Origin: Planctopirus limnophila DSM 3776
Lineage (GTDB): Bacteria; Planctomycetota; Planctomycetia; Planctomycetales; Planctomycetaceae
Reading direction: 5' to 3'
Assembly: GCF_000092105.1 (NCBI RefSeq)
Contig: NC_014148.1
Coordinates: forward strand, 2,640,001-2,672,000
Length of the DNA: 32,000 bases
The notes under the pieces are model-generated. The model ran no database searches and was not told the origin of the DNA. It saw nothing but the letters and a program-made list of their open reading frames with translations. Below are positions 1-15,607 of this stretch, piece after piece; position 1 is the stretch's first letter, and each line of letters opens with the position of its first letter. Position numbers and translations under genes: made by a program.

Positions 1-498
1 CGAGAAAGCCGCAAAGATGTAGCCGAGAATGTGATGATTGTGGATCTGCTGAGGAACGATCTCTCACGGGTTTGTCGTGCTGGAAGTGTGAACGTTCCTG
101 CATTATGCGAAGTGGAAACCTATCGGACAGTTCAACATCTCGTGAGTGTTGTCACGGGAGAACTCTCCGAGCCTTTTGACTCCTGGGACGCCTTGCGGGC
201 CTGTTTTCCCGGCGGTTCGATCACGGGGGCACCGAAAGTTCGAGCGACGGAAATCATTGCTGAACTGGAACCCACCACACGAGGCCCTTACACAGGAACA
301 TTGTTCTACATGACCCCCGATCTCTGGTGCGACAGCAGTATTCTCATTCGCACATTCATCGCGAGCGAGGGCTGGCTGCAATTGGGAGTCGGGGGTGGCA
401 TTGTCGTCAATTCCGACCCGGTTCAAGAGTTCGAGGAGACATTAACCAAAGCCTCCGGAATGCTTGCGGCTCTGACTCGCCCCCATTCGAGCGAGTAA
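1..498 (+). CDS. pabB: Aminodeoxychorismate synthase component I (chorismate-binding enzyme), C-terminal part; the 5' end lies outside the window
   Basis: Frame 1 is open from nt 1 (RESRKDVAENVMIVDLLRNDL...). DLLRNDL, FPGGSITGAPKVRATEIIAELEP and GGGIVVNSDP form the conserved C-terminal core of the TrpE/PabB family. The GGSITGAPK and GGGIV variants resemble E. coli PabB more than TrpE (from memory, no search run). Confidence 0.8.
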   Translation, partial: RESRKDVAENVMIVDLLRNDLSRVCRAGSVNVPALCEVETYRTVQHLVSVVTGELSEPFDSWDALRACFPGGSITGAPKVRATEIIAELEPTTRGPYTGTLFYMTPDLWCDSSILIRTFIASEGWLQLGVGGGIVVNSDPVQEFEETLTKASGMLAALTRPHSSE

Positions 499-2764: not shown

Positions 2765-5700
2765 TCAGGGAATTCGCACTTCAAAACCACCCTGGGCAGG
2801 TTTGGGCAAACGAGCCTGGTACTTCTTTGCCAGACGATGTTGTCGGGAATCAATCGGCACTGCAGATCCCCCGATCAGAACGCCATGAATCTGCGTCCCC
2901 TGCAGAAGAATTGAGCCATCAGCAATCACCAGATCGGCTCGCTTACCGGGCGTGATCGATCCGGTCAGCTCACCGACTCCCAGAATCTCGGCGGCAGAAA
3001 TCGTGATCGCTTTAATGGCCTCATTTTCCGGCAATCCGTAAGCCACGGATGTAGCCGCATGGAACGGTGTATTGCGACTATCTGGTGCCCCATCGGAACG
3101 AAACGCAATCTTGACTCCGGCTTCGTGCAAACGCCCGGCATTGGCGTAACAGGCATCAAATGGATCCCAGGAGTGAATGGGCCGCCGGATGACGCCACCC
3201 ACAATCACAGGAATCTTCCGGGCTGCGAGTTCGTCAGCCAGTTTCCAGGCATCTGCCCCACCGGTAATCACGGCCTGGAGCTTCTCTGCTTCGATAAACA
3301 GGAGTGCTTCCGCAATCTGTTTCTCTGTATTGGCTTCGATAAACACCTTCTTCTCGCCAGAGGCATAGGGGATCATCGCCTCCAGGCGCAGATCCCTTTG
3401 CGTCAGTAAAGATTCTGGTGATTTCGACATCGCTGCTGCATACGTTCGGGCAGCAGTAAACATCGCTTTCAATTCACGAATTGCTCCCTCATTTGAATCG
3501 CCACCTGGCCACTGGATCTGCAAACCCGCATCCCGAAGAAGTGTCATCTCAGCCGATGTCCAGCCCTGGAGAGCAATGATCGAGTTCTGCCCGCTGATGC
3601 GACCACCTTGGGGACTCAAACCCGCCAGAGTAATTCCGCCTGATCTTGCGGTGAAAATATGCTCAGAGTCAGGATTCACAGCCGCTGCTGCGGCGAGATC
3701 AGGTTGGAACTGACCAATCTCGGAGTAATCCGAAGTGACGGAAAGCTGGCTGATCTCTGTAATTCCGACAGTTGTGCTGGCATCGATCATCCCCGGGAAA
3801 ACTCGTCTTCCCTGGAGATCAATTCTCGTAATAGACGGTTCGGCCTCAAGCTTCTCACCCAGTGCGAGAATCTTTCCCTCTTTGATGTGAATCATTCCCT
3901 GCTTGATTTTCGCTTGATCGACGGGATGAATCTCACAATTGACCAGGAGATATTCGTTGCCCAGATTTTCAGGCCATTCCATCACTGGCAAACGCTTTTC
4001 CGCAGGAGGCCATTCTGGTGCCGGAATTTTTTCAGAGGCTTTGGCAGCTACCTCCGACATGACTGCCGGTTGCCTGGATCGATCGAAGTACCACTCGCCA
4101 CCAATGAACGTCTTCTCGCAACGGGAGAATCCACTCATGGGATGCGTGTTGAAGATCGCAACGTCGCCCAGTTTGCCGACTTCGATGGTCCCCACATGCT
4201 CATCGATTCCCAGCTCTCGAGCGGGATTTCTCGTCACAAACTGAAGTGCCACTTCCGGAGGCACATTTCCATGTCTAATAGATTTTGCGGCCTCATGGTT
4301 CAGAGCATTGGGAGTGACAGGGAAATCACTCTTGATCACCACACTGGCCCCCGCCTGCAGCAACATAGCCGCGTTGTAAGGGGTGGCATCATAAGCTTCC
4401 ACTTTGTAGGCCCAGTGATCAGCAAAGGTACTGGTGCTGGCCCCATGGGCTGCAATTTCCGGAGCAATCTTGAATCCCTCAAGGACATGCTGCAGGGATT
4501 GAATGCGAATTCCGTGGGAACTGGCAACCCGGAGCAGCATGAGGATTTCATCAGACCGGTAACAATGCGAGTGGATCAGGATCTCGCCAGCCAGAATCTT
4601 TGATAAGGCTTCCAGTCGCAGATCGCGCCTTGGTGGAAGAGTTTTGGCCTTTTCTTCTGCAGAGAGCCGATCATAAGCCATCCAGCGGGAGCGATAATCG
4701 AGCGATTCGACAAAAGCCCTGGTGATCGTAGCTTCGACTCCCAGCCGCGTATTCGGGAAACGCCCATTTTTGCGTTTCACATTTTCCCCCAAGGCAAACT
4801 TCACACCTTGGCGAGAGAAAGGGAAGAGATGATCGTGGGTGGATGCCCCGATCTTCATTTGAACGACCGCGTCCTGCCCGCCGATTGTATTCGCCGAACC
4901 ATGGAGCAGGCGGGCCGTGGTCAACCCTGTCGCCAGCCAGCGATACGAATCAGGATCTGTACCATCCACAATATCCCGCACACGGACTTCGCAGGTGATC
5001 GAGTTGGTGGCTTCATTCACTCCTCCCAGCCCGCGGCCCATCATCATATGGCTGTGCGTATCAATCTGGCCGGGAACGACGAATTGGCCCGTGGCATCAA
5101 TGACCGTCGTACCATCGGGAGCAGGAATGTCTGTTCCAATCGCCGTGATGCGACCCGCCTGAATCAACACCGCATGACCTGCGAGCGATTGCCCCGTCCC
5201 AGTCAGCACAGTACCGCCTTTGATCAGCACGTTTCCACCCGTTGACGGGGGACGTCTTTGACGATCGGCCTTCAGTTCCACGGGAGGCTTTTTGGCAACC
5301 GCCACTTTCTCTTGAGCATCTTTTTCGCTTTGGGCGGTCTCCAGATGCATCGGTTTCAAAGCATCTGCCGGTTTTTGTGGTTTCTCATTCTTCGAATCAC
5401 CCGATTCTTCGATCGTGGTGACTTCAATCGCCTGCAAAGCGGCACTCCCATCGATCTTTGTCGATTGAGGCTTTCGCTCGGCAGTGAAGTCAATCGCTGT
5501 TCCAAAGAGCGATTTCAATTTGCCTGTCATCGTGTTGCCACGAACAGTCCCTTTGAATTCCAAGGTCACATCCCGGTCACCAGCCCCAATCGAGACCACG
5601 AACTCGACCTCCTGGCCTTTGACCGTCCCTTGTTTAATCCGACCATCTCCCTGTTCACTGGAGAATCGACCCGTCAATCGATCACCCGTCTGCACAATCG

Positions 5701-7267
5701 ATAACGTGGCCATCAGTGAGTTTTCTGTGGCAGTACTCTTCACACGCCACTCACCACTCACCAGCCCTGCGTTGTTCGAATCACTGCCAGTAGCCTTGCC
5801 GTCGTCGGCTTTTCCGGACTCACTCAGTGGCTTGGCCTCGTGAGAAAACTCGAAGACCCGGCCTCCAATGACAACATATCGAACCACGCTTTTAGCGTTT
5901 GAGATTGGCCCATTGAGAATCGTAAAGTTGGCCAGCTTCCCCGGAGCAATCGAACCCAGTTGCTGTTCTTGACCAAGAATCTGCGCCGGTTCCGAAGTTA
6001 ACAGGGCAATTGCTTCTTCCTCTTTGAGCCCGCGCTCGATCATTTTCCGAATCACACCGAGAAACTTCTGTGGTTGGTCGCTGAATCTCCGGCTGGAGAG
6101 ACCCACTCTGATTCCACTGCGAAGAAGTGTTCCTGCCAGATCAAGTTCCTCCTGGTATTCAAGAAGTGAATTTTCCTGAACGTCTTTGGGAGGTTTTTTG
6201 CCTCGTCCCGCGAGACCTGCAGGCGACTCTTCGACTTTTGGTGCATCATCGGCATTGAGTGCGAGGATAACCGGCGTCTGTGTCGATTTGAGCAGTTCGA
6301 TCTGCTGACGGGCTTCTTTACCACCCCAGATGATGACTTTAAGGCCGTGCTCTTCACCCAGTCGAATCGCGCGCTCGATGTCGTTGGCCGTATCCGCAAT
6401 GATGACCGCCGGCCGCCCCGATTTCTTGAACTCGATCAGCGACTCCAAACCGGCATCTTTGGGTGGACGACTGAGCCCCGGGGTTCCGCTGGCAGCTAAT
6501 TTCAAATGCTGCTCGTGTCGCATGGCGTCGAGCCAGACCTGACGGAAAAGAGCCACTTGACCCATGACTGTGGATGGATAGACACCAAACGACTGCGGCG
6601 AGAATTCAAAGACCTGTCCTGCGCCAGTACCTAACCATTCTTCACGGGGTGGCTTATCGCCCAACTGGAGGAGCACACCCTGGCCACTACAGATTCTCCC
6701 CGAAGGCCAGATCGCGACTGTCGTAAAACCCGCTCCGCGTAGCTTCGAAGTACCGGCAAATTCTCGGGGTAGCCGGGACATAACATCGAAATCAGGAGTA
6801 AATCCGGTGCGAAGATCACTGGGGAGATGGGCGAGGGAAGTCTGTTCCAGCCCCATTTCCTGCATGGGCATGAGAGGTATATTCTGCTCCAGGCCACTGG
6901 GAAGGCCCGCGTTAATCCATCCCGGATAGATGTGCAAACCAGCGGCATTAAGGATCGATGTACCGGGAGGAATCACGCTGTTCTGACTGATATCCGTAAT
7001 CACACCATCCCGGGAGAGAATCAGCCGGCTCTTTTCAGTCTTAGCCGAAGCGTCGGCCATGACTTTTTCGTCCGGCGTATTGAGATGCCAGATGCCTCCT
7101 TCAATGGCTAGCTGCCGAAAGGGATGCGGCACCGCTTCCTGAGCCGTCAGCTGAGCAGTTCCTCCGGTGACGGTGAGGATTAAGCCAGTGAGCAATGCCC
7201 GCTGTAGAATTGCTGGTGCGCAGAAAACCCGGCGTTTAAAAACGATGGCGAGAATAGACAAACCCAA
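2765..7267 (-). CDS. Large secreted protein made of three fused amidohydrolase-superfamily modules
   Basis: 1500-aa ORF with an N-terminal hydrophobic signal or anchor. The middle module has the canonical PGQIDTHSH metal-binding HxH (nt 5048-5062) plus downstream HSHCYR and KSD motifs. The N- and C-terminal modules are mutually similar and have PGWINAG / PGMIDAST in place of HxH. The start (TTG at 7267) is uncertain. Confidence 0.8.
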   Translation of the reverse strand: MGLSILAIVFKRRVFCAPAILQRALLTGLILTVTGGTAQLTAQEAVPHPFRQLAIEGGIWHLNTPDEKVMADASAKTEKSRLILSRDGVITDISQNSVIPPGTSILNAAGLHIYPGWINAGLPSGLEQNIPLMPMQEMGLEQTSLAHLPSDLRTGFTPDFDVMSRLPREFAGTSKLRGAGFTTVAIWPSGRICSGQGVLLQLGDKPPREEWLGTGAGQVFEFSPQSFGVYPSTVMGQVALFRQVWLDAMRHEQHLKLAASGTPGLSRPPKDAGLESLIEFKKSGRPAVIIADTANDIERAIRLGEEHGLKVIIWGGKEARQQIELLKSTQTPVILALNADDAPKVEESPAGLAGRGKKPPKDVQENSLLEYQEELDLAGTLLRSGIRVGLSSRRFSDQPQKFLGVIRKMIERGLKEEEAIALLTSEPAQILGQEQQLGSIAPGKLANFTILNGPISNAKSVVRYVVIGGRVFEFSHEAKPLSESGKADDGKATGSDSNNAGLVSGEWRVKSTATENSLMATLSIVQTGDRLTGRFSSEQGDGRIKQGTVKGQEVEFVVSIGAGDRDVTLEFKGTVRGNTMTGKLKSLFGTAIDFTAERKPQSTKIDGSAALQAIEVTTIEESGDSKNEKPQKPADALKPMHLETAQSEKDAQEKVAVAKKPPVELKADRQRRPPSTGGNVLIKGGTVLTGTGQSLAGHAVLIQAGRITAIGTDIPAPDGTTVIDATGQFVVPGQIDTHSHMMMGRGLGGVNEATNSITCEVRVRDIVDGTDPDSYRWLATGLTTARLLHGSANTIGGQDAVVQMKIGASTHDHLFPFSRQGVKFALGENVKRKNGRFPNTRLGVEATITRAFVESLDYRSRWMAYDRLSAEEKAKTLPPRRDLRLEALSKILAGEILIHSHCYRSDEILMLLRVASSHGIRIQSLQHVLEGFKIAPEIAAHGASTSTFADHWAYKVEAYDATPYNAAMLLQAGASVVIKSDFPVTPNALNHEAAKSIRHGNVPPEVALQFVTRNPARELGIDEHVGTIEVGKLGDVAIFNTHPMSGFSRCEKTFIGGEWYFDRSRQPAVMSEVAAKASEKIPAPEWPPAEKRLPVMEWPENLGNEYLLVNCEIHPVDQAKIKQGMIHIKEGKILALGEKLEAEPSITRIDLQGRRVFPGMIDASTTVGITEISQLSVTSDYSEIGQFQPDLAAAAAVNPDSEHIFTARSGGITLAGLSPQGGRISGQNSIIALQGWTSAEMTLLRDAGLQIQWPGGDSNEGAIRELKAMFTAARTYAAAMSKSPESLLTQRDLRLEAMIPYASGEKKVFIEANTEKQIAEALLFIEAEKLQAVITGGADAWKLADELAARKIPVIVGGVIRRPIHSWDPFDACYANAGRLHEAGVKIAFRSDGAPDSRNTPFHAATSVAYGLPENEAIKAITISAAEILGVGELTGSITPGKRADLVIADGSILLQGTQIHGVLIGGSAVPIDSRQHRLAKKYQARLPKPAQGGFEVRIP

Positions 7268-8470: not shown

Positions 8471-10858
8471 ATGACTGAAAAACGCCCAGGGGCACGACGC
8501 CCAACGCGCCGCCGCTCAGACGATGTCGAGAACTCGACTGAGACACCCAAGCCTGTGATTGAAGAGGTTTTTGAGGAAGTCGCAGGGCTCCATCGCGAAT
8601 TTGATGGCGAGGAACCTCCCAAGCCAAAACGGACGCGGACTCCTCGGGCCACATCGACAGGCTCCCGCAGCGCTGGCGATTCTTCGACCAGCGAATCGGC
8701 TCCCCGTGCCGAACGACCTTCACGCCGCAAACCGGTACCGGTCGATATCGAACCAGCGCCCGTAGCCGGGAGTGCCATGTTCTACGATCCCGTCGATGAA
8801 TCTGACTTCACACCATCGACTCGATCCCGGAAGTCGCCCGACAATGCTGGTGCTGATGCATTCCCAGCGAGCGAAGAGCAACCGGCTGCAACACGGCGCC
8901 GACGTGCTCCCTCTCGAAGCCCTCGCGAAACATCAGCAGAATCCAGAACGGATGATGCCCCTAGAACGCAAGATACCCCCAGAGTTCAAAATACTCCCAG
9001 AGCCCAAGAAGACAGCGACTTCGGCTCTGGCCTGGATGACGTCGACTCGCCATCAAAATCGGCTGGTGCATCGAGATCTTCGCCCTCGAATGAAGGTGAA
9101 TTTCCGCCGAGAGATGAAGCCTCTTCCCGCACTCAGCGGCCACGCCGGTCGGCAGCGAGAACTGGTGGCGAAAGATCAAGTCGATACCAGAGTCGCGGAG
9201 ACGGACCTGCCGACGAACCAACTTCATTCGCACGTCGAGATCGATCAGAAGCCAGTGACAGATCGGAAGCCAGTGACTTTGAACCAGCACCGCGTTCTGG
9301 TGAGTCTTCTTCAGAGGCTTACAATCGCGCCGGTGGTGAAGATGAGGGGCCAAGGTCAGGCTCTCGCGATGAGAGCAATTCGGTTGAAAACTTTAATGAA
9401 TCAGGCTTTTCGGGCGAAAACCCGAACGATGGCACGCCCGCGCGTCGCCATGGTGGATTCAACGAAGGTGATGAGGGAGGCGACCCAAATGATGGAGGTC
9501 GCCGTCGTCGCCGCAGGCGCCGTCGTGGTCGCGGTGGCCCAGATGGTGGCCTGCAGGGCCCACAGGCACCCCGCGGACAGTTCGTTCCTCAGGGAAATAA
9601 TAATCCCCGCGGCCGGAACAACAACAATCGCTCACAAGGTGGTCACCAGCGAAATCAGGGAGGGAATCGTCCCTATGATCAATCGCGACGAGGTCCACAA
9701 AATCCTCAGGATCGCAATTACAACTCTGCTCCGCGCGGGCCGGAAGTGATTGAGCCCACCAGTGGCGTGCTCGAATTGCACCCCAAAGGCTATGGATTCC
9801 TGCGCGACCCGAAAGCCGGTTATGTCTCGCAGGAAACCGATCCGTTTGTGTCAGCCACCATCATTCAGAAGTTTGGTCTGCGTGAAGGTGTACTGATCCA
9901 GGGTGATATGGTTCAGGGCAGCCGGGGGCAGGGCCCGCGTCTGCGAACAACCGAGTATATCGATGGCCGTACACCCGAAGATTACGCACAAATCAAGGGG
10001 TTTGACGATCTCACACCAATCAATCCCTTTGAGCAGATCCGCCTTGAAACAGGGCCCACCCCGATCACTATGCGGATCATGGATCTGCTGACACCGATCG
10101 GTAAAGGTCAGCGAGCACTCATTGTGGCTCCGCCCCGCAGTGGTAAAACCATGCTGCTGCAGGAGATTGCCGATGCCGTCAGCAAGAATCATCCGGAGAT
10201 CTATCTGATTGTGCTGTTGATCGACGAACGTCCTGAAGAAGTGACAGAAATGCGTCGTCGCGTGCGCGGGGATGTCATTGCCTCCTCGATGGATCGTGAA
10301 GTCGAAAACCATGTTCGCGTCAGCCAGTTGATCTTTGAAAGGGCCAAAAGGCTCACCGAGGCAGGACGGGATGTCTTCATTCTGCTTGATTCGATTACCC
10401 GAACGGCCCGCGCTTTCAATAAATGGACAGGGAACACCGGTCGCACAATGTCCGGCGGTCTGGACATCAAGGCCATGGATATTCCCAAGAAGATGTTCGG
10501 CCAGGCCCGTCGTTTCGAAGAAGGGGGCTCACTCACTGTTGTCGGGACGGCACTTGTCGAAACCGGCAGCAAAATGGACGACGTGATCTTCCAGGAGTTC
10601 AAGGGGACTGGCAACATGGAAATGGTGCTCAGCCGAGACCTCGCAGATCGTCGCATCTGGCCTGCCATCGATGTTTCAAAATCGGGGACACGTCGCGAAG
10701 AAAAGATCCTCTCTCCCGAAGTGATGGAGGGGGTGACATTGCTCCGCCGCAGTCTGATTTCTTTGAGCCCCGTGGAAGCGATGGAGCAGATGGTTCGTAT
10801 TCTCACCAAATACAAAACCAACGAAGAGTTCCTCGCCAAGGTTCGTTCAATCCTCTAA
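8471..10858 (+). CDS. rho: Transcription termination factor Rho with a ~425-aa disordered N-terminal extension
   Basis: The C-terminal ~370 aa are collinear with E. coli Rho: GVLELHPKGYGFLR (CSD-like RNA-binding domain), GQRALIVAPPRSGKTMLLQEIA (Walker A), LLIDERPEEVTEM, LLDSITRTARAF and FKGTGNMEMVLSR. The N-terminal part is rich in R/S/D/E/P/G. Confidence 0.95.
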   Translation: MTEKRPGARRPTRRRSDDVENSTETPKPVIEEVFEEVAGLHREFDGEEPPKPKRTRTPRATSTGSRSAGDSSTSESAPRAERPSRRKPVPVDIEPAPVAGSAMFYDPVDESDFTPSTRSRKSPDNAGADAFPASEEQPAATRRRRAPSRSPRETSAESRTDDAPRTQDTPRVQNTPRAQEDSDFGSGLDDVDSPSKSAGASRSSPSNEGEFPPRDEASSRTQRPRRSAARTGGERSSRYQSRGDGPADEPTSFARRDRSEASDRSEASDFEPAPRSGESSSEAYNRAGGEDEGPRSGSRDESNSVENFNESGFSGENPNDGTPARRHGGFNEGDEGGDPNDGGRRRRRRRRRGRGGPDGGLQGPQAPRGQFVPQGNNNPRGRNNNNRSQGGHQRNQGGNRPYDQSRRGPQNPQDRNYNSAPRGPEVIEPTSGVLELHPKGYGFLRDPKAGYVSQETDPFVSATIIQKFGLREGVLIQGDMVQGSRGQGPRLRTTEYIDGRTPEDYAQIKGFDDLTPINPFEQIRLETGPTPITMRIMDLLTPIGKGQRALIVAPPRSGKTMLLQEIADAVSKNHPEIYLIVLLIDERPEEVTEMRRRVRGDVIASSMDREVENHVRVSQLIFERAKRLTEAGRDVFILLDSITRTARAFNKWTGNTGRTMSGGLDIKAMDIPKKMFGQARRFEEGGSLTVVGTALVETGSKMDDVIFQEFKGTGNMEMVLSRDLADRRIWPAIDVSKSGTRREEKILSPEVMEGVTLLRRSLISLSPVEAMEQMVRILTKYKTNEEFLAKVRSIL

Positions 10859-10979: not shown

Positions 10980-11615
10980 CTACCATTTCGTGAATTGAGG
11001 AGCTTGATCAAGCTGACCATGAGTGGAAATGGGCTGGCCTTTTCCGTTCAAGAAGGGAGGACGAGCAGGGGCATGAGCTGCAGGATGTCTCCTGGCATCC
11101 AATCGCTGGGCACGCTCCAAAGCTTCACGCGCTGCACGCTCCTGAATTTTCCGACGTGCGAGAGTGACCTGTTGCTCATAAGCCGCCGCTGCACTTCGCG
11201 ATGCTATCGCTTTTACTGGAGATTGATCCGTCGGCAAATCGTTATTCGAAGCATTGGCTGGCGGAATTGTCGCTGGCTCTTGCCCCGCTTGGGAATATGA
11301 AACCTGCCGAGTTCGATCGACGTCAGTACCGTTTGAACTGGCAGATTCCGAGTTGCTGCTGACCTGTGTTGGTGGGGGAGGATTCATCGATCCCGCAGGC
11401 GTCTGATCTTCAAACAGGAGCGGGAGCGGGCCCAATTCCTGCACCAGATTTTCTGTCGTCACTTTTGGTCGGACGAGTTCCGGGTCATGCTGAAAATGGA
11501 CGACCTCTTGAGCCAGACTGGTTCCCAGGGAGAGTGCCAGCACAGGGAGCGATAACGACAGGCCGGCGACATTGAACCATGACTGACGCATGTCATTAAA
11601 CTCCGACTGATCCAT
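10980..11615 (-). CDS. Hypothetical secreted or membrane-anchored protein
   Basis: ATG start. The N-terminal hydrophobic stretch WFNVAGLSLSLPVLALSLGTSLAQE looks like a signal peptide or anchor. It is followed by a low-complexity P/S/N-rich region and a charged helical segment (RRKIQERAAREALERAQRLDARR). I recognise no family. Confidence 0.55.
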   Translation of the reverse strand: MDQSEFNDMRQSWFNVAGLSLSLPVLALSLGTSLAQEVVHFQHDPELVRPKVTTENLVQELGPLPLLFEDQTPAGSMNPPPPTQVSSNSESASSNGTDVDRTRQVSYSQAGQEPATIPPANASNNDLPTDQSPVKAIASRSAAAAYEQQVTLARRKIQERAAREALERAQRLDARRHPAAHAPARPPFLNGKGQPISTHGQLDQAPQFTKW

Positions 11616-11852: not shown

Positions 11853-12620
11853 TTATTGGCCAGAATTCGGTGCTGGTGATGTCTGCGTAAGCACTGGCTG
11901 TTCGACGGCCGCGCCCTCAGTGCTTTTTGGCGATTCCGAATAGTCGCTCTGCTGTTGCTCAGTTTCTGCTGAGTGGTGCAGGGCATCCGCCAGTTGAGCC
12001 CTTTGAATTTGAATGGCTTCATCAAATTGATTGAGGACATCGATCGCTCGATCGCGCGATGTCACCAGTCCAATAATCAGGTACTGAATAATCGCCAGAC
12101 CATAACAGACCCAACCGACCCAGCCATCCTGAAAGACAGCCATAATGGCAAAGACAGGAGATGACCGGTTGAGGTGCTTGCACAACAAACCTCGAATCAA
12201 ATCCGGTAAGTAGCTCCAACACGCCTTGATACGTCCATGGGGTGGCATTTTGAAAGGAGGTGGCCCGGGATGAATAATCGCAAACAGCCCCTGATCAGGC
12301 ATGCCTTCAATCACACCTATCGCGAGCATTAATCGACCGGCCAGAATCATCCAGCCCTTTTCCTCGCGAAGATCAAGTGGCACCCAGCCAAAGAAGGCCT
12401 GCTCCATGTTGGCCGAGGCGACCAGCAGCAGAATTGCTCCACGGAACCAGAGTTCAAGATCTCGCTCAAGCTCTTGATCAAGCCCGTTCACTCGGACAAC
12501 ACGCTTCAAAAACCAGCGAAACAACGGGACTGCCATCAACCCGATGATCAGGCGCGTCACTGGTTTCAGTATCGGAGCCAGTAGTTGCGGCGGTATCAGT
12601 AATCGCAGCAACTCCAGCAT
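11853..12620 (-). CDS. Multi-pass membrane protein of unknown family; candidate retron effector
   Basis: 255-aa ORF with an ATG at 12620 preceded by AAGGAG (12630-12635, - strand) at a 9-nt spacing. About 4-5 hydrophobic segments are visible: LIIGLMAVPLFRWFL, GAILLLVASANMEQAFFGWV, GWMILAGRLMLAIGVI and VFAIMAVFQDGWVGWVCYGLAIIQYLIIGLV. The C-terminus is a polar tail. The gene lies 58 bp downstream of the RT stop on the same strand. Confidence 0.7.
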   Translation of the reverse strand: MLELLRLLIPPQLLAPILKPVTRLIIGLMAVPLFRWFLKRVVRVNGLDQELERDLELWFRGAILLLVASANMEQAFFGWVPLDLREEKGWMILAGRLMLAIGVIEGMPDQGLFAIIHPGPPPFKMPPHGRIKACWSYLPDLIRGLLCKHLNRSSPVFAIMAVFQDGWVGWVCYGLAIIQYLIIGLVTSRDRAIDVLNQFDEAIQIQRAQLADALHHSAETEQQQSDYSESPKSTEGAAVEQPVLTQTSPAPNSGQ

Positions 12621-12678: not shown

Positions 12679-14019
12679 TCATGAATTCCAGTGGATCTTC
12701 TCAAAAATCTTCTGCAAACGCACTCCCCGGTCAGGATTCAAATGCCGGATATGTGCCAACCTGCCCTGAAGATGAGCTCGAAAATCAACCTGTTGATCTC
12801 GATTCTGTGTCTGATGACCATGCCGAACGCAATTGTGCAAAATCGCCTTGAGTTGATCGTAGTCTCTTCGAGAGCAATTGGGACGCTGATTCACGACCAC
12901 ACCAGTGACTGTCTGCCGATTCGACTGCCGGAGAATCCTTCGCTTCGCGGGCTGAGAATGAAAACGGCACTGCACTATCACCTTATCAGTCAGCGGCACA
13001 AATCTTTTGAGCTGTTTCAAAAACCGATGATCACCCGAGAATGTGAGATCGTCCGCGTAACGGGTGTAAATCGCACCAAATCGACGGGCCAAACCCGTCA
13101 GACGTACATCCAGTGAATATGTCGCCAGATTCGCCAGAGCCGGAGAAGTGGGCGCGCCTTGGGGTAAATGACGCCGTGTGAACAGCATAATCGAATAGGG
13201 ATTCTTATCGGGAAATGCCATACCCATGGGCAATGCCGAGGTTGTCAATCGCGCCAGCCACAAAGCCATTTCGCGAGAGTACCCCAGGGAACGAAAGATC
13301 GCGACGACTTTTGAAAATGTGACCGACGGATAGAAATCTTTCAGATCAAACTTCACCACCACAGCTTTCCCGGCATGCAACTGGGCATTTGAGACGATGT
13401 CACAACCGGGGACAAAACCATGTGCCGCTGGATGTGCGGGAACCAGATCAAGAATTCGCCTGAGAATGATCTCCTGGACTCTTTTGAGTGCTGGTTTGGG
13501 TGCTTCAATGAGCCGGTGCCCCGAGCGCTTTTTGCGGATCCATTTCAGCCAGTAATGCGATTTTTTTTCGGTGGGAGGTCGGCCATGATCGGCGAGGTGA
13601 ATCAATCCGGCCAGCCGCTTGATCGGCAGCCCCAGAAACTGGCTTAATTCATCAAGAGTGGTGAGGACTGGCAACCGATGTTGCTGCAGCAAATCGACGC
13701 GCGTATCCGTTAGCAGATTCAGAAACTGCTCACGTCGGCGCGTACGGGCATATCTGGCATAAACGTACGGAAGCTGATCGACTTGAGTTCCACGCCCCTC
13801 GATGCGCCATTGTCGCACCATTTCGGGTGATCGATATCTGAGTCGTGGAAGTTTCGGAGTTGTTGTGGAACCGAGCCATTGCCGCTTCTGGCCACCCGCT
13901 TGATTCGAAGAAGGGCTGCCCGGCAACGTGTGGTTGGAACCTGTCGGTCGCCACCAACTCAAGAACCAACTCCACAAACCCATGAAGACATCCTTGACCT
14001 GGCAATGCATCGTCCGCAT
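12679..14019 (-). CDS. Retron-type reverse transcriptase
   Basis: Collinear with retron Ec86 RT as I recall it. LPVLTTLDELSQFLGLPIKRLAGLI aligns with Ec86 LPVMNNLHDMSKATRISVETLRLLI. HGFVPGCDIVSNAQLHAG contains NAxxH (nt 13375-13389). Further matches are FDLKDFYPSVT, IFRSLGYS, LPQGAPTSPALANL, YTRYADDLTFS (YADD, nt 13048-13059) and NRQTVTGVVVN (VTG, nt 12901-12909). The start is uncertain: ATG at 14019, or Met67 at 13821. Confidence 0.9.
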   Translation of the reverse strand: MRTMHCQVKDVFMGLWSWFLSWWRPTGSNHTLPGSPSSNQAGGQKRQWLGSTTTPKLPRLRYRSPEMVRQWRIEGRGTQVDQLPYVYARYARTRRREQFLNLLTDTRVDLLQQHRLPVLTTLDELSQFLGLPIKRLAGLIHLADHGRPPTEKKSHYWLKWIRKKRSGHRLIEAPKPALKRVQEIILRRILDLVPAHPAAHGFVPGCDIVSNAQLHAGKAVVVKFDLKDFYPSVTFSKVVAIFRSLGYSREMALWLARLTTSALPMGMAFPDKNPYSIMLFTRRHLPQGAPTSPALANLATYSLDVRLTGLARRFGAIYTRYADDLTFSGDHRFLKQLKRFVPLTDKVIVQCRFHSQPAKRRILRQSNRQTVTGVVVNQRPNCSRRDYDQLKAILHNCVRHGHQTQNRDQQVDFRAHLQGRLAHIRHLNPDRGVRLQKIFEKIHWNS

Positions 14020-14033
14020 TGAATTCCAAAAAA

Positions 14034-14052
14034 TCGACCGCCGGGTCGCACA
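14034..14052 (-). repeat. Retron a2 inverted repeat (3' end of the msd-coding region)
   Basis: Partner of a1 (see above). It ends 15 nt upstream of the RT ATG at 14019. Confidence 0.8.
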
Positions 14053-14067
14053 ACCAATGCCTGTTTC

Positions 14068-14105
14068 GAATCCTGTCTACGGTGGAACCACCGTAGACAG
14101 GATTC
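14068..14105 (-). repeat. Long perfect hairpin in the msd region
   Basis: GAATCCTGTCTACGGTGG (14068-14085) + AA + CCACCGTAGACAGGATTC (14088-14105). This is an 18-bp perfect palindrome, the size and position expected for the msDNA stem. Confidence 0.85.
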
Positions 14106-14183
14106 CAGTTCAGTATGGGAGCAATCATTCGAGCACGGGGTAACCCCGCACCGGCCAGGCTTTTCAGCGATATGGCCTCTTCT

Positions 14184-14202
14184 TGTGCGACCCGGCGGCC
14201 GA
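14184..14202 (-). repeat. Retron a1 inverted repeat (5' end of msr)
   Basis: The + strand TGTGCGACCCGGCGG (14184-14198) is the exact reverse complement of CCGCCGGGTCGCACA (14038-14052). Pairing extends to 19 bp (to 14202 / 14034) with one G-U wobble. Confidence 0.8.
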
Positions 14203-14209
14203 CGACTGG

Positions 14210-14238
14210 AGTTTACACGGATTTCCACGACTCACCAA
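14210..14238 (-). promoter_or_regulatory. Putative sigma-70-like promoter of the retron transcript
   Basis: On the - strand: TTGGTG (14233-14238), 17 nt, then TAAACT (14210-14215). This places a start about 7 nt downstream, right at the extended a1 repeat (about 14202). The -35 match is weak and the consensus for this phylum is uncertain. Confidence 0.25.
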
Positions 14239-14384
14239 GCGGCTTTTTGAGCAACCGTTGTGTCACAATTTCTGCAGGGATTTGAATCCTCGTTCTCTCA
14301 GGGAATACACGAGCAGACGTTTCAACTATGCTATGTCGAATCGTTCGTCAAAAGATTACTCACCGAGAAGAGAAACCGATCGAT

Positions 14385-15056
14385 ATGTTTTCTGCAGGTC
14401 CAACTCCGCTGGATGTCACCTTTGTACTTTTTGGCATTCCCGTTCGAGTGAACCCGATGTTCTGGCTGATGGCCGCTGCCCTGGGTTGGGGATCAGGTGA
14501 CCTGCCACTGGTGCTGATCTGGGTGTGGTGTGTCTTTTTCTCAGTACTCATTCATGAACTGGGACACGCTCTGACAGCCGAGTGGTTTGGCTGGCGAAGT
14601 TCAATCCTGCTCTATTTTGGGGGAGGGCTGGCTTTCTCAGATCGGTACGTCAATAACACGCCGGGGCGGTCTGTGATCATGTCGTTCATGGGCCCGATGG
14701 CTCAATTCCTGCTCTTGGGAATCGTGCTGATCGTTTTATTGGCCTTGCGGGCCTTTCAAGTCGAGATTCCGCCTTACGCAGCGACGGCGTTTAATTATCT
14801 GATCATCATCAATATCTTCTGGCCGATCTTGAATCTGCTCCCGATTCTGCCACTCGATGGAGGCCGCATCCTGCAGGGCCTGCTCGATATGTTCCGTATC
14901 CGGCGGCGCAGTGATATCACCCGCGGGATCAGCGTCGTTCTCGCAGCGGCTGTTGCCGTCTGGTGCTTCACTGAAAACATGCCTTTCGGCACGATCATGT
15001 TCGGTTTGATTGCCTGGCAGAACGCGAGTGGAGCGTTTGATTCTCGCGCCTATTGA
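14385..15056 (+). CDS. Site-2 protease family (peptidase M50) integral membrane metalloprotease
   Basis: Shows the HExxH motif VLIHELGHALTAEWFGW, the second M50 signature NLLPILPLDGGRIL, and multiple hydrophobic segments. I chose the ATG at 14385 (MFSAGPTPLDV) over the track start at 14328. Confidence 0.8.
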   Translation: MFSAGPTPLDVTFVLFGIPVRVNPMFWLMAAALGWGSGDLPLVLIWVWCVFFSVLIHELGHALTAEWFGWRSSILLYFGGGLAFSDRYVNNTPGRSVIMSFMGPMAQFLLLGIVLIVLLALRAFQVEIPPYAATAFNYLIIINIFWPILNLLPILPLDGGRILQGLLDMFRIRRRSDITRGISVVLAAAVAVWCFTENMPFGTIMFGLIAWQNASGAFDSRAY

Positions 15057-15607
15057 TTCATTGCAGAGAACTGACAAACATCGATGAATTCAGTATTCAA
15101 GAAACTCAGTTCATCAGTTGGAATCTTGCAGTGATTGCTCAATCAACACCCACACCGCAGAGTCGCGGCTACATTCATAAAACTTGTGAAACAGCTACTG
15201 AAGTGAATGGCGGTGAGTTTCAGGCACTGGCAGATCCATTAGCAGATATGAAACAGACCTATTGTGCGACCTGTGAAGACTACTTCCCGGTCCGTGAATT
15301 TCGCTGGGAAGATACGAACGAAACACTTTCCAAGTACTACGCCAGGCACTCGCAAAAGGCCTCGGCAATGGCTCGCTTCCTGGGTCGCCGGGACGGCATG
15401 CTCGCACTCTGCTTGCTCGGAGCCGGTTTGGGAATACTTGCAGGGATTGCCATCGGCGTCATTAATGGGCTTGGCCTCGGGATCCTCGTCGCGATCATTC
15501 TGGGAGTTATCGGACTCGTGGGTGGCTTTTGCTTGCAGGCGTTTGTTGTCAATCCCCTGTTGCTTTCGATGATCTGCGGTGAATGGGATCCTCGAAGACT
15601 CAAGTGA
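15053..15607 (+). CDS. Hypothetical protein with a Cys-containing N-domain and a Gly-rich C-terminal membrane region
   Basis: The ORF overlaps the M50 stop by 4 nt. It contains KTCETA...CATCEDYFPV, then LALCLLGAGLGILAGIAIGVINGLGLGILVAIILGVIGLVGGFCLQAFVV (2 predicted TM helices). The start codon is very uncertain (TTG at 15053, no nearby ATG). Confidence 0.5.
   Translation: MIHCRELTNIDEFSIQETQFISWNLAVIAQSTPTPQSRGYIHKTCETATEVNGGEFQALADPLADMKQTYCATCEDYFPVREFRWEDTNETLSKYYARHSQKASAMARFLGRRDGMLALCLLGAGLGILAGIAIGVINGLGLGILVAIILGVIGLVGGFCLQAFVVNPLLLSMICGEWDPRRLK

What the first reader, a model, noticed from the sequence alone, without database searches (positions are those of the whole stretch)
14034..14202. 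Predicted retron ncRNA architecture and msDNA sequence
The - strand reads 5'-(GTCGG)CCGCCGGGTCGCACA-AGAAGAGGCCATATCGCTGAAAAGCCTGGCCGGTGCGGGGTTACCCCGTGCTCGAATGATTGCTCCCATACTGAACTGGAATCCTGTCTACGGTGGTTCCACCGTAGACAGGATTCGAAACAGGCATTGGT-TGTGCGACCCGGCGG(TCGA)-3'. The a1/a2 repeats pair perfectly over 15 bp and over 19 bp with one G-U. A G lies 2 nt after a1 (complement of 14182) in the position where retrons carry the 2'-5' branching guanosine. Two short msr-like hairpins follow (GGCCA/TGGCC at 14153-14177; CGGGG-TAA-CCCCG at 14136-14148). Next comes an 18-bp perfect hairpin (14068-14105) where the msd stem is expected. If reverse transcription starts just 5' of a2, as in known retrons, the msDNA equals the + strand from about 14053 (ACCAATGCCTGTTTCGAATCCTGTCTACGGTGGAACCACCGTAGACAGGATTCCAG...). 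Its length would be on the order of 70-100 nt; that length is inference, because the stop point cannot be read from the sequence. A perfect 18-bp stem with essentially no loop is unusually clean for an msd.
Basis: partly seen in the sequence, partly recalled or inferred. Interest (0 to 1): 0.8.

Follow-up and report, generated by a model that had tools for sequence, protein, structure and literature searches.

The report
Retron non-coding RNA in Planctopirus
The flagged 171-base stretch is very probably the template RNA gene of a retron (a bacterial reverse transcriptase that copies part of its own RNA into small single-stranded DNA); its folded shape is conserved in about 30 related bacteria, but it is a new example of a known kind of element, not a new kind.

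Summary
On the - strand, 14203-14033 holds a 21-bp closing stem (a1/a2), a G directly after a1 (14182), two msr hairpins, a 17-bp msd hairpin and a G directly 5' of a2 (14054). It folds far better than shuffles (z = -9.7). It lies 49 nt upstream of a retron-type RT (12679-13983, YADD, NAXXH, VTG).

A covariance model built from this one sequence finds the same architecture upstream of the RT in 31 other Planctomycetaceae loci. 92.9% of cells pair, against 35-42% in slid controls. 44 of 55 pairs carry compensatory changes, including all 17 msd pairs.

The RNA is 171/171 identical to P. hydrillae, while its flanks are 86-93% identical. A conserved promoter ends 5-12 nt before a1, and a U-tract follows a2.

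msDNA should start at 14054. Its likely length is 55-80 nt. The clean msd stem is typical of the family.

The RT sits between Mestre's clade 11 (stand-alone retrons) and type XIII. No type XIII accessory gene or any known effector is nearby, and the context is housekeeping and syntenic. msDNA production was not tested.

Verdict: new member of a known kind, of moderate interest.

The parts
14233..14238 (-). Predicted -35 box (TTGGTG) of the ncRNA promoter
   Evidence: It aligns with a conserved TTGAC/TTGnnn box. The pattern TTGnnn-16..18-TAnnnT ends 5-12 nt before a1 in 23 of 32 homologous loci, against 0.7% of random positions. The tool's generic promoter scan did not call it.
14210..14215 (-). 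Predicted -10 box (TAAACT). It ends 6 nt before a1, so the transcription start is predicted at about 14203 +/- 2
   Evidence: This is inference from conservation. No transcript data were available.
14183..14203 (-). a1, the 5' arm of the closing stem (GUCGGCCGCCGGGUCGCACAA)
   Evidence: In 32 loci, 14 of the 21 a1/a2 pairs show changes on both sides, and 93.0% of cells are paired. The inner part, GGGUCGCACAA, is conserved in sequence.
14182..14182 (-). Candidate priming (branching) guanosine, directly 3' of a1, in an AAG context
   Evidence: G in at least 90% of the 32 aligned loci. The two exceptions (L018, L048) also read CCAAG but are shifted by 1 nt in the alignment. The position matches the definition in PMC6868368. 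The function was not tested.
14153..14177 (-). msr hairpin 1 (variable sequence and length)
   Evidence: All 5 base-of-stem pairs have compensatory changes, and 97.1% of cells are paired. The MAFFT-only alignment also recovers this stem.
14132..14152 (-). msr hairpin 2, core GCGGGG-UUA-CCCCG. This is the most conserved element and the probable RT recognition hairpin
   Evidence: GGG-NUA-CCC (three G-C pairs closing the loop) is invariant in 32 loci. The same hairpin lies upstream of distant RT_other-type RTs in L030, L045, L097 and L065. The recognition role is inferred by analogy with Ec86 region Y binding to its msr stem-loop (PMC6868368).
14106..14131 (-). Single-stranded linker between msr and msd, with a conserved UUG. 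This is the predicted zone where reverse transcription stops
   Evidence: RNAalifold predicts no conserved helix here. The conserved UUG is seen. [quoted passage not shown]
14068..14105 (-). msd hairpin (17 bp and a 4-nt loop as RNA; the same hairpin forms in the DNA copy)
   Evidence: All 17 pairs show compensatory changes across 32 loci. Each of the 24 homologues folded gives a long hairpin here of unrelated sequence when folded alone. The DNA fold of + strand 14054-14131 is -19.3 kcal/mol, z = -6.65.
14054..14067 (-). 3' linker of msd. G14054, directly 5' of a2, is the predicted first template base, so the first msDNA base would be dC
   Evidence: The G before UUG is invariant in 32 loci. 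[quoted passage not shown]
14033..14053 (-). a2, the 3' arm of the closing stem (UUGUGCGACCCGGCGGUCGAU)
14028..14033 (-). U-tract (UUUUUU) at and after the end of a2. With the closing stem it looks like an intrinsic terminator
   Evidence: The first 10 nt after a2 hold a mean of 5.4 T in 32 loci, against about 2.1 expected from composition. The small local hairpin called inside a2 was not noticed in the homologues by eye.
12679..13983 (-). Retron-type reverse transcriptase, 434 aa (Plim_2043, WP_196349569.1). The start is ATG 13983, with an AAGGA ribosome-binding site at 13995-13991
   Evidence: The start is conserved in 23 homologues. YADD, NAQLH (NAXXH) and VTG are present. PADLOC scores: RT_other 413 bits, RT_outgroup 391, RT_XIII 344. 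The best PDB hit is the Ec86 RT, 6.6e-31. Identity of the protein.
11853..12620 (-). Plim_2042, a 255-aa helical, probably membrane protein directly downstream. It is a possible partner, not an established part
   Evidence: It is same-strand and immediately downstream in 18 of 34 loci with enough flank. It also occurs without an adjacent RT in Schlesneria paludicola. It has no Pfam, PADLOC, NCBIfam or PDB match and no fold match.

Best explanation
This is the msr-msd gene of a chromosomal retron of Planctopirus limnophila DSM 3776.

Proposed mechanism:
1. The RNA (about 171 nt, - strand, 14203-14033) is transcribed from its own promoter, which ends 6 nt upstream of a1.
2. The a1 and a2 ends pair into a 21-bp stem. 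This brings G14182 next to G14054.
3. The RT encoded 49 nt downstream (12679-13983) binds the RNA, most likely through the invariant GGGG-NUA-CCCC hairpin.
4. The RT uses the 2'-OH of G14182 as primer and copies the msd from G14054 towards the 5' end, through the hairpin at 14068-14105.
5. It stops in the single-stranded linker (14106-14131). RNase H removes most of the template.

The predicted product is a branched RNA-DNA molecule. Its DNA part equals the + strand from 14054 (CCAATGCCTGTTTCGAATCCTGTCTACGGTGGAACCACCGTAGACAGGATTCCAG...). It would be roughly 55-80 nt long and fold into a 17-bp hairpin.

Shown here: the conserved architecture and its covariation, strong purifying selection on the RNA, the retron-type RT, and the conserved promoter and U-tract.

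Inferred: priming at G14182, the start at 14054, the stop zone, and RT binding to hairpin 2.

The cassette appears to be stand-alone, with no recognisable effector. It sits in a conserved housekeeping neighbourhood, so its cellular role (defence with an unlinked or unknown partner, or a domesticated function) is open.
For: Structure:
- z = -9.68 for the 171-nt RNA.
- The a1/a2 repeat recurs at the same position upstream of the RT in about 20 Planctomycetaceae loci. The outer part varies with compensation and the inner part is conserved.
- RNAalifold on a structure-blind MAFFT alignment recovers a1/a2, the base of hairpin 1 and hairpin 2. 16 of its 32 pairs are compensatory.
- Model R1, built from this one sequence, finds 32 full-length sense-strand matches at E = 1e-50 to 4e-8.
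- On that alignment 92.9% of cells pair, against 34.8-42.5% when partners are slid. 44 of 55 pairs change on both sides. The covariation score is 0.542, against 0.05-0.08 for slid partners. 0 of 500 shuffles reach any measure. The msd helix is 17 of 17 compensatory.
- RNAalifold on that alignment gives the same four helices.
- Folding each homologue alone also gives a long msd hairpin.

Strand: 125 G-U cells against 39 A-C cells. The antisense model score is 40.9 bits against 216.9 bits for the sense strand.

Selection: 171 of 171 nt are identical to P. hydrillae, while neighbouring genes and spacers are 86-93% identical.

RT: RVT_1, YADD, NAXXH and VTG are present. Only retron RT models lead the PADLOC hits. 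Only retron RTs are hit in the PDB.

Promoter: present in 23 of 32 loci, against 0.7% of random positions.

Priming context: the conserved G after a1 and the G 5' of a2 match published rules (PMC6868368; 10.1101/2024.01.25.577267).
Against: - There is no experimental msDNA for this retron or, as far as the held literature shows, for any planctomycete retron.
- No Rfam family matches.
- No known retron effector or type XIII accessory gene lies within the 32 kb. Most characterised retrons are three-part systems, so this is unusual.
- The G sits in a CAAG context, not the commonest TAGC or TTAG context.
- The U-tract after a2 could end transcription before the RT gene. That differs from the classical single msr-msd-RT transcript.
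- The 32-sequence alignment was fitted to the model's structure, which inflates pair counts somewhat. This is mitigated and by the slid-partner control.
Confidence: 0.85

Rival explanations
1. It is a three-part retron whose effector is the downstream helical, probably membrane protein Plim_2042 (11853-12620). The msDNA-RT complex would hold this protein in check until phage infection, as in retrons with transmembrane effectors. This rival concerns function only; the RNA would still be an msr-msd.
For: - The gene is immediately downstream, on the same strand, with its own GAAGGAG ribosome-binding site. I saw no obvious terminator in the 58-nt spacer by eye.
- It keeps that position in 18 of 34 related loci.
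- The family is restricted to the same bacterial group and diverges to a similar degree as the RT.
- It has hydrophobic helices.
Against: - It is absent downstream of the RT in 16 of 34 loci with enough flank.
- It is present without an adjacent RT in Schlesneria paludicola.
- The loci also share housekeeping neighbours (the M50 protease, and ORF clusters whose example sequences look like MutL and a shikimate-pathway enzyme but were not scanned), so plain synteny explains the adjacency.
- It matches no defence model and no known fold.
Confidence: 0.15
2. It is a structured RNA that is not reverse transcribed. For example, it could be a cis-regulatory leader or attenuator (closing stem plus U-tract) controlling RT expression, or a small RNA that merely co-evolves with the RT.
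For: - A conserved promoter and a conserved U-tract after the closing stem resemble a self-contained, terminated transcript.
- msDNA has not been demonstrated.
Against: - The architecture matches retron ncRNAs feature by feature: a1/a2, a G at the stem end, one to three msr hairpins and a long msd hairpin. Both the G after a1 and the G 5' of a2 are invariant.
- The RT keeps its catalytic motif and the retron-specific motifs.
- A plain attenuator would not need a long hairpin of free sequence and two further hairpins.
Confidence: 0.07
3. It is a mobile or repetitive palindromic element (a MITE or REP-like element with terminal inverted repeats), or the terminator of a neighbouring gene, unrelated to the RT.
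For: It has inverted repeats at its ends, an internal perfect palindrome, and a terminator-like call at 14048-14035.
Against: - It is single-copy in the window.
- It is always at the same place and on the same strand relative to the RT in 32 loci, with compensatory rather than identical repeats.
- Its G-U bias shows that the selected fold is RNA of the RT strand.
- The upstream gene is divergent, so there is nothing for it to terminate.
Confidence: 0.02

Closest known systems
Stand-alone (msr-msd)-RT retrons of RT clade 11 of Mestre et al. 2020 (PADLOC models RT_other / RT_outgroup)
   Same: - The best PADLOC match of the RT is RT_other (4e-124).
- No conserved accessory gene is present.
- ncRNAs upstream of full-length RT_other-type RTs in Burkholderiales, Rhodobacteraceae and others (L030, L045, L065, L097) are hit by model R1. 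They share the order a1-CAAG, hairpin 1, GGGG-UUA-CCCC hairpin, linker, msd hairpin, a2.
   Different: - The window RT matches that profile only from position 142. It lacks that family's N-terminal domain and instead has its own extension of about 95 aa, starting with a conserved MGLxxxLRRLF motif.
- It scores 413 bits, against 445-557 bits for typical members.
- The lineage is planctomycete, not actinobacterial or proteobacterial.
- Mestre's clade 11 covariance models were not available for a direct test.
Type XIII retrons (RT clade 10: Mx162, Mx65, Sa163, Ne144)
   Same: - PADLOC RT_XIII scores 344 bits, close to the best hit.
- The RT has an extended N-terminus (PMC6868368).
- There are signs of vertical inheritance (PMC7736814; here, conserved synteny).
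- A 2026 survey files 26 Planctomycetota RTs under type XIII (10.64898/2026.05.14.725207).
   Different: The defining accessory genes are absent from the 32 kb. These are the winged-helix/SWIM zinc-finger protein and the HEAT/ARM-repeat protein. The priming context is CAAG, against CAGC or GAGC. Homology of the N-terminal extensions was not tested.
Retron-Eco1 (Ec86), the best-studied retron and closest solved RT structure
   Same: The RT aligns over residues 101-385 (E = 7e-31). The ncRNA logic is the same: a1/a2, a priming G at the stem end, msr hairpins and an msd hairpin.
   Different: Ec86 works with a nucleoside deoxyribosyltransferase-like effector, and no effector is recognisable here. 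This RT has about 100 extra N-terminal residues. This ncRNA appears to have its own promoter and a U-tract.

Membership tests
Retron (RT plus msr-msd ncRNA) | Reverse transcriptase with the RT motifs and a YxDD catalytic core | tested here: met
   Pfam RVT_1, 3e-21, covering residues 161-375. YADD is invariant in 24 aligned sequences.
Retron (RT plus msr-msd ncRNA) | Retron-specific region X (NAXXH) and region Y starting with VTG (PMC6868368) | tested here: met
   NAQLH and TVTGVVVN are present. N211, A212, H215, V371 and G373 are invariant.
Retron (RT plus msr-msd ncRNA) | ncRNA gene adjacent to the RT on the same strand, closed by inverted repeats a1/a2 | tested here: met
   A 21-bp stem lies 49 nt upstream of the RT start. 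It is conserved with compensatory changes in 32 loci.
Retron (RT plus msr-msd ncRNA) | Conserved guanosine at the 3' end of a1 (priming residue) | tested here: met
   G14182 abuts the stem. It is G in at least 90% of 32 loci, and the two exceptions are shifted by 1 nt in the alignment. Its priming activity was not tested.
Retron (RT plus msr-msd ncRNA) | One to three msr hairpins and one long msd hairpin inside the closing stem | tested here: met
   Two msr hairpins and a 17-bp msd hairpin are present. All are supported by covariation.
Retron (RT plus msr-msd ncRNA) | Production of msDNA joined to the RNA by a 2'-5' bond | not testable with these tools
   This needs nucleic-acid preparation, debranching and sequencing.
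Type XIII retron (Mestre clade 10) | Adjacent gene for a winged-helix/SWIM zinc-finger protein (cluster 114) | tested here: not met
   The neighbours at 10980-11615, 11853-12620, 14328-15056 and 15053-15607, and ten further large ORFs of the window, give no such Pfam or PADLOC hit. The rest of the genome was not searched.
Type XIII retron (Mestre clade 10) | Adjacent HEAT/ARM-repeat accessory protein (cluster 216 and relatives) | tested here: not met
   Same scans. The neighbour-clustering run recovered conserved clusters only of syntenic genes within the Planctomycetaceae clade; none was shared across more than 4 of the distant loci.
Type XIII retron (Mestre clade 10) | RT falls in clade 10 | tested here: inconclusive
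   RT_XIII scores 344 bits but is third, behind RT_other (413) and RT_outgroup (391). No phylogeny with reference RTs could be built.
Clade 11 stand-alone retrons | RT matches the clade's profile over its full length | tested here: not met
   The match starts at profile position 142 of 481. Typical members match from position 63-71 with 445-557 bits.
Clade 11 stand-alone retrons | Clade 11 type A or B ncRNA structure | tested here: inconclusive
   Model R1 hits ncRNAs upstream of RT_other-type RTs (E = 2e-5 to 2e-3), with a shared conserved hairpin. The published covariance models were not available.
Group II intron | Intron RNA domains and a maturase-type RT | tested here: not met
   No Rfam intron match. 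TIGR04416 scores 41 bits against a cut-off of 300.
Diversity-generating retroelement | Template and variable repeats of about 100 nt near the RT | tested here: not met
   Direct repeats near the RT are at most 27 nt long and 70% alike. No DGR-type model is among the hits listed for the RT.

The most novel reading that the evidence does not exclude
The cassette could be a domesticated, vertically inherited retron that is widespread, perhaps near-universal, in Planctomycetaceae. It would be kept in a core-gene neighbourhood (M50 protease - ncRNA - RT - Plim_2042) without any classical effector. Its ncRNA would be an independent promoter-to-terminator unit. Its msDNA would serve a cellular rather than antiviral role, or act through the lineage-specific N-terminal extension of the RT and/or the helical protein Plim_2042.
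Probability: 0.2. Interest if true: 0.7.

Novelty: new member of a known kind. Interest (0 to 1): 0.4.

Why it matters
The result gives an exact, testable map of an unannotated retron RNA in a culturable model planctomycete. The map covers the promoter, the priming G, the first template base, the msd hairpin and the likely stop zone. It is backed by covariation in 32 loci.

The lineage lacks a known effector and sits among housekeeping genes with conserved synteny. That makes it a reasonable system for an old question raised by the myxobacterial retrons: do some vertically inherited retrons do something other than phage defence?

It also adds a compact ncRNA with a freely variable 17-bp msd stem to the list of candidates for retron-based DNA production.

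Tried and rejected
- Rfam at gathering thresholds found nothing. At E <= 10 it gave only spurious miRNA and snoRNA hairpin hits on the msd palindrome.
- The generic promoter scan found no promoter. The promoter emerged only from comparison of homologues.
- The terminator-like hairpin inside a2 was not noticed in the homologues by eye, so I did not treat it as a feature. Only the U-tract is conserved.
- MAFFT alone misaligned the msd hairpins, whose sequences are unrelated. RNAalifold on that alignment therefore missed the msd helix. I solved this with a covariance model built from the window sequence and with per-sequence folding.
- My first anchor regex was wrong and found only 2 loci. It was fixed.
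- The lower extension of the msd stem in the window's MFE (CUG/CAG and CCC/GGG) is not in register in the homologues and is not predicted by RNAalifold. I left it out of the model.
- Pfam, PADLOC and NCBIfam scans of the neighbours gave no effector.
- Plim_2042 has no PDB sequence hit. Its AlphaFold model (pLDDT 81) has no Foldseek match below E = 0.68.
- Clustering the neighbours of all 80 genome loci showed no shared accessory gene outside planctomycete synteny.
- The supplements of Mestre et al. are not held, so I could not check whether Plim_2043 is in their set.
- The retron census preprint gives no data on clade 10 or 11 or on planctomycetes in its main text.
Full report
**1. What is in the sequence**

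Read on the - strand, 14203-14033 contains the following, in order:
- a 21-bp closing stem (a1 14203-14183 with a2 14053-14033; 19 Watson-Crick and 2 G-U pairs)
- a G at 14182 that directly abuts the stem
- hairpin 1 (14177-14153)
- hairpin 2, with core GCGGGG-UUA-CCCCG (14152-14132)
- a 26-nt linker (14131-14106)
- a perfect hairpin (14105-14068; 17 bp and a 4-nt loop)
- a 14-nt linker ending in G14054
- a2
- UUUUUU (14033-14028)

The repeat finder gives arms 14034-14053 / 14183-14202 (20 nt, 95%) and 14068-14085 / 14088-14105 (18 nt, 100%). The 171-nt RNA folds at -102.9 kcal/mol, against -59.9 +/- 4.4 for shuffles (z = -9.68, 0 of 200 shuffles as good). The a1 core matches exactly only at a1 in the window; its one 1-mismatch match is the complement of a2.

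**2. The neighbouring gene**

The ORF at 12679-14019 (-) is a reverse transcriptase (Pfam RVT_1, 3e-21). An alignment with 23 homologues shows that the real start is M13 of that ORF, at ATG 13983. It is preceded by AAGGA at 13995-13991. This gives a 434-aa protein that starts 49 nt after a2.

The RT carries YADD and the two retron-specific signatures, NAXXH (NAQLH) and VTG (definitions in PMC6868368). Its best PADLOC hits are retron RT models: RT_other at 413 bits, RT_outgroup at 391 and RT_XIII at 344. All 14 PDB sequence hits are retron RTs, the best being Ec86 at 6.6e-31. The first 100 or so residues match nothing.

An exact look-up identifies the window as Planctopirus limnophila DSM 3776. 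The RT is Plim_2043 (WP_196349569.1), named only 'reverse transcriptase family protein'.

**3. Comparative evidence for the RNA**

Scans of genome and metagenome contigs returned 160 RT loci. About 38 of them belong to the same Planctomycetaceae RT lineage, at 46-60% identity.

Sequence and repeats:
- A plain blastn of the RNA already shows that the hairpin-2 sequence recurs upstream of many of these RTs.
- A simple stem search finds a1/a2-type repeats at the same position. The inner part is conserved (GGGTCGCACAA / TTGTGCGRCCC) and the outer part varies with compensation.

Structure-blind analyses:
- RNAalifold on a MAFFT alignment of 17 sequences recovers a1/a2, the base of hairpin 1 and hairpin 2. 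16 of its 32 pairs are compensatory.
- Folding each homologue alone gives, in every one of the 24 folded, a long msd hairpin of unrelated sequence with few or no interruptions at the same place.

Covariance model:
- Model R1 was built from the window sequence alone.
- It finds 32 full-length sense-strand matches at E = 1e-50 to 4e-8, each upstream of its RT.
- On that alignment 92.9% of cells pair, against 34.8-42.5% with slid partners.
- 44 of 55 pairs show changes on both sides.
- The covariation score is 0.542, against 0.05-0.08 for slid partners.
- No shuffle out of 500 reaches any measure.
- All 17 msd pairs are compensatory.
- RNAalifold on the same alignment predicts the same four helices and none in the linkers.
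- Caveat: this alignment is fitted to the model. The structure-blind analyses above agree with it.

Strand and selection:
- G-U cells outnumber A-C cells 125 to 39. The antisense model score is 40.9 bits against 216.9 bits. The selected fold is therefore RNA of the RT strand.
- Between P. limnophila and P. hydrillae the RNA is 171/171 identical, while the RT, the neighbouring genes and the spacers are 86-93% identical.

**4. Conserved single-stranded features and transcription signals**

The G after a1 and the G directly 5' of a2 are essentially invariant. So are GGG-NUA-CCC (three G-C pairs closing the loop of hairpin 2) and a UUG in the linker. A priming G at the end of the a1 arm defines retron ncRNAs (PMC6868368). 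In sequenced retrons the first copied base is most often G (10.1101/2024.01.25.577267).

A sigma-70-like promoter (TTGAC/TTGnnn, 16-18 nt, TAnnnT) ends 5-12 nt before a1 in 23 of 32 loci, against 0.7% of random positions. In the window it is TTGGTG 14238-14233 and TAAACT 14215-14210.

The 10 nt after a2 hold on average 5.4 T, against about 2.1 expected. The ncRNA may therefore be a self-contained, terminated transcript. The RT would then be expressed by read-through or from signals in the variable spacer, which is 19-259 nt in the loci where a start could be located. This is inference.

**5. Mechanism**

The best-supported reading is the standard retron pathway:
1. The RT binds the RNA, probably at the invariant hairpin 2, by analogy with Ec86 region Y (PMC6868368).
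2. It primes on the 2'-OH of G14182.
3. It copies from G14054 through the msd hairpin.
4. It stops in the linker.

The DNA would be the + strand from 14054 (CCAATGCC...). The minimum is about 52 nt (through the hairpin). The maximum is 80 nt if the RT stops at the foot of hairpin 2. [quoted passage not shown]

As DNA, + strand 14054-14131 folds into the same 17-bp hairpin (-19.3 kcal/mol, z = -6.65). None of these biochemical steps was or could be tested here.

**6.

- The stem is 21 bp (16 perfect), not 15 or 19.
- The G abuts the stem.
- The msDNA starts at 14054.
- A clean, long msd stem is typical of this family and is not unusual. L018, for example, has 21 consecutive pairs.

**7. Which retron**

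Mestre et al. (PMC7736814) define type XIII (clade 10; Mx162, Mx65, Sa163, Ne144) by a winged-helix/SWIM protein and HEAT/ARM proteins, with signs of vertical inheritance. They define clade 11 as stand-alone cassettes.

Distant loci from Burkholderiales, Actinomycetota and Corallococcus match RT_other over its full length (445-557 bits). The window RT, and two other Planctomycetota RTs with the same MGLFDWLF start, match it only from profile position 142. Their RT_XIII score is nearly as high as their RT_other score. The lineage therefore lies near both clades and has its own N-terminal extension of about 95 aa. A 2026 survey files 26 Planctomycetota RTs under type XIII (10.64898/2026.05.14.725207).

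Model R1 also hits ncRNAs upstream of RT_other-type RTs. They share the GGGG-UUA-CCCC hairpin and the same order of elements. The RNA therefore belongs to a wider family, probably one that is already modelled.

No type XIII accessory gene and no other defence model is found in the 32 kb.

**8. Context**

The window is housekeeping: Rho, ClpB, DnaK, triose-phosphate isomerase, SecG and prephenate dehydratase. Its composition is even and it holds no tRNA.

Synteny is partly conserved:
- The M50 protease lies divergently upstream in 12 of 25 loci.
- Plim_2042 lies directly downstream in 18 of 34 loci.
- Downstream ORF clusters whose example sequences look like MutL and a shikimate-pathway enzyme (not scanned) recur in several loci.

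Plim_2042 is a helical, probably membrane protein found in the searches only in planctomycetes. It has no family, PDB or fold match. It occurs without an adjacent RT in Schlesneria paludicola. I therefore treat it as a syntenic neighbour and only a possible partner.

**9. Verdict**

The finding is correct: this is a retron msr-msd gene with unusually strong comparative support. It is a new, unannotated member of a known kind. The points of interest are its effector-less, syntenic, probably vertically inherited state in Planctomycetaceae, its lineage-specific RT extension, and its apparent own promoter and U-tract. The biological role is unknown.

Noticed in passing
window 14210-14238 (- strand), and upstream of a1 in L004, L005, L006, L008, L019 and others: A conserved sigma-70-like promoter (TTGAC-17-TAnnAT) ends 5-12 nt before a1 in 23 of 32 loci, against 0.7% of random positions. 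The window version is TTGGTG / TAAACT.
   Followed up: yes
window 14028-14033, and the 10 nt after a2 in 32 loci: A U-tract directly follows the closing stem (mean 5.4 T of 10, against about 2.1 expected). This suggests the ncRNA may be terminated before the RT gene, unlike the classical single retron transcript.
   Followed up: partly
window 14033-14203 versus L001 4815-4985: The ncRNA is 171/171 identical between P. limnophila and P. hydrillae. The RT gene is 93.1% identical, the flanking spacers about 92%, and orf184 85.6%.
   Followed up: yes
window 13699-14019 (RT N-terminus): The longest ORF starts at ATG 14019, but the conserved start is ATG 13983. The first 95 or so residues form a lineage-specific extension that begins with a conserved MGLxxxLRRLF-type motif. 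It is followed by a basic, low-complexity stretch. It has no Pfam or PDB match.
   Followed up: partly
window 11853-12620 (Plim_2042): A helical, probably membrane protein found only in planctomycetes in the searches (1,208 homologues). It has no family or fold match. It lies directly downstream of the RT in 18 of 34 loci, but stands alone in Schlesneria paludicola (L081).
   Followed up: partly
window 14328-15056 (+): An M50-family membrane metalloprotease lies divergently upstream of the ncRNA, and is conserved there in 12 of 25 loci. It gives weak sub-threshold NCBIfam hits to RiPP-maturation HExxH proteases (daptide type, E = 2.8e-8, 33 bits against a cut-off of 300).
   Followed up: no
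L028 4442-4589 and L046 4433-4585: A second Planctomycetota RT lineage has the same MGLFDWLF N-terminus. Its ncRNA is shorter (about 148 nt) and has a different a1/a2 core (GGGAGAGAYUU / AAGUCUCUCCC), but it keeps the GGGG-YUA-CCCC hairpin.
   Followed up: partly
L030, L045, L065, L097 (RT_other-type RTs from Burkholderiales, Rhodobacteraceae and others): The window-derived model hits ncRNAs upstream of these distant RTs. The CAAG after a1 and the GGGG-UUA-CCCC hairpin are shared across phyla.
   Followed up: partly
window 8471-10858 (+): The Rho termination factor is 795 aa. It has an acidic/basic, low-complexity N-terminal region of about 430 aa before the RNA-binding domain.
   Followed up: no
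window 2765-7267 (-): A 1,500-aa ORF has three separate amidohydrolase-family matches. It looks like an unusually large multi-domain amidohydrolase.
   Followed up: no
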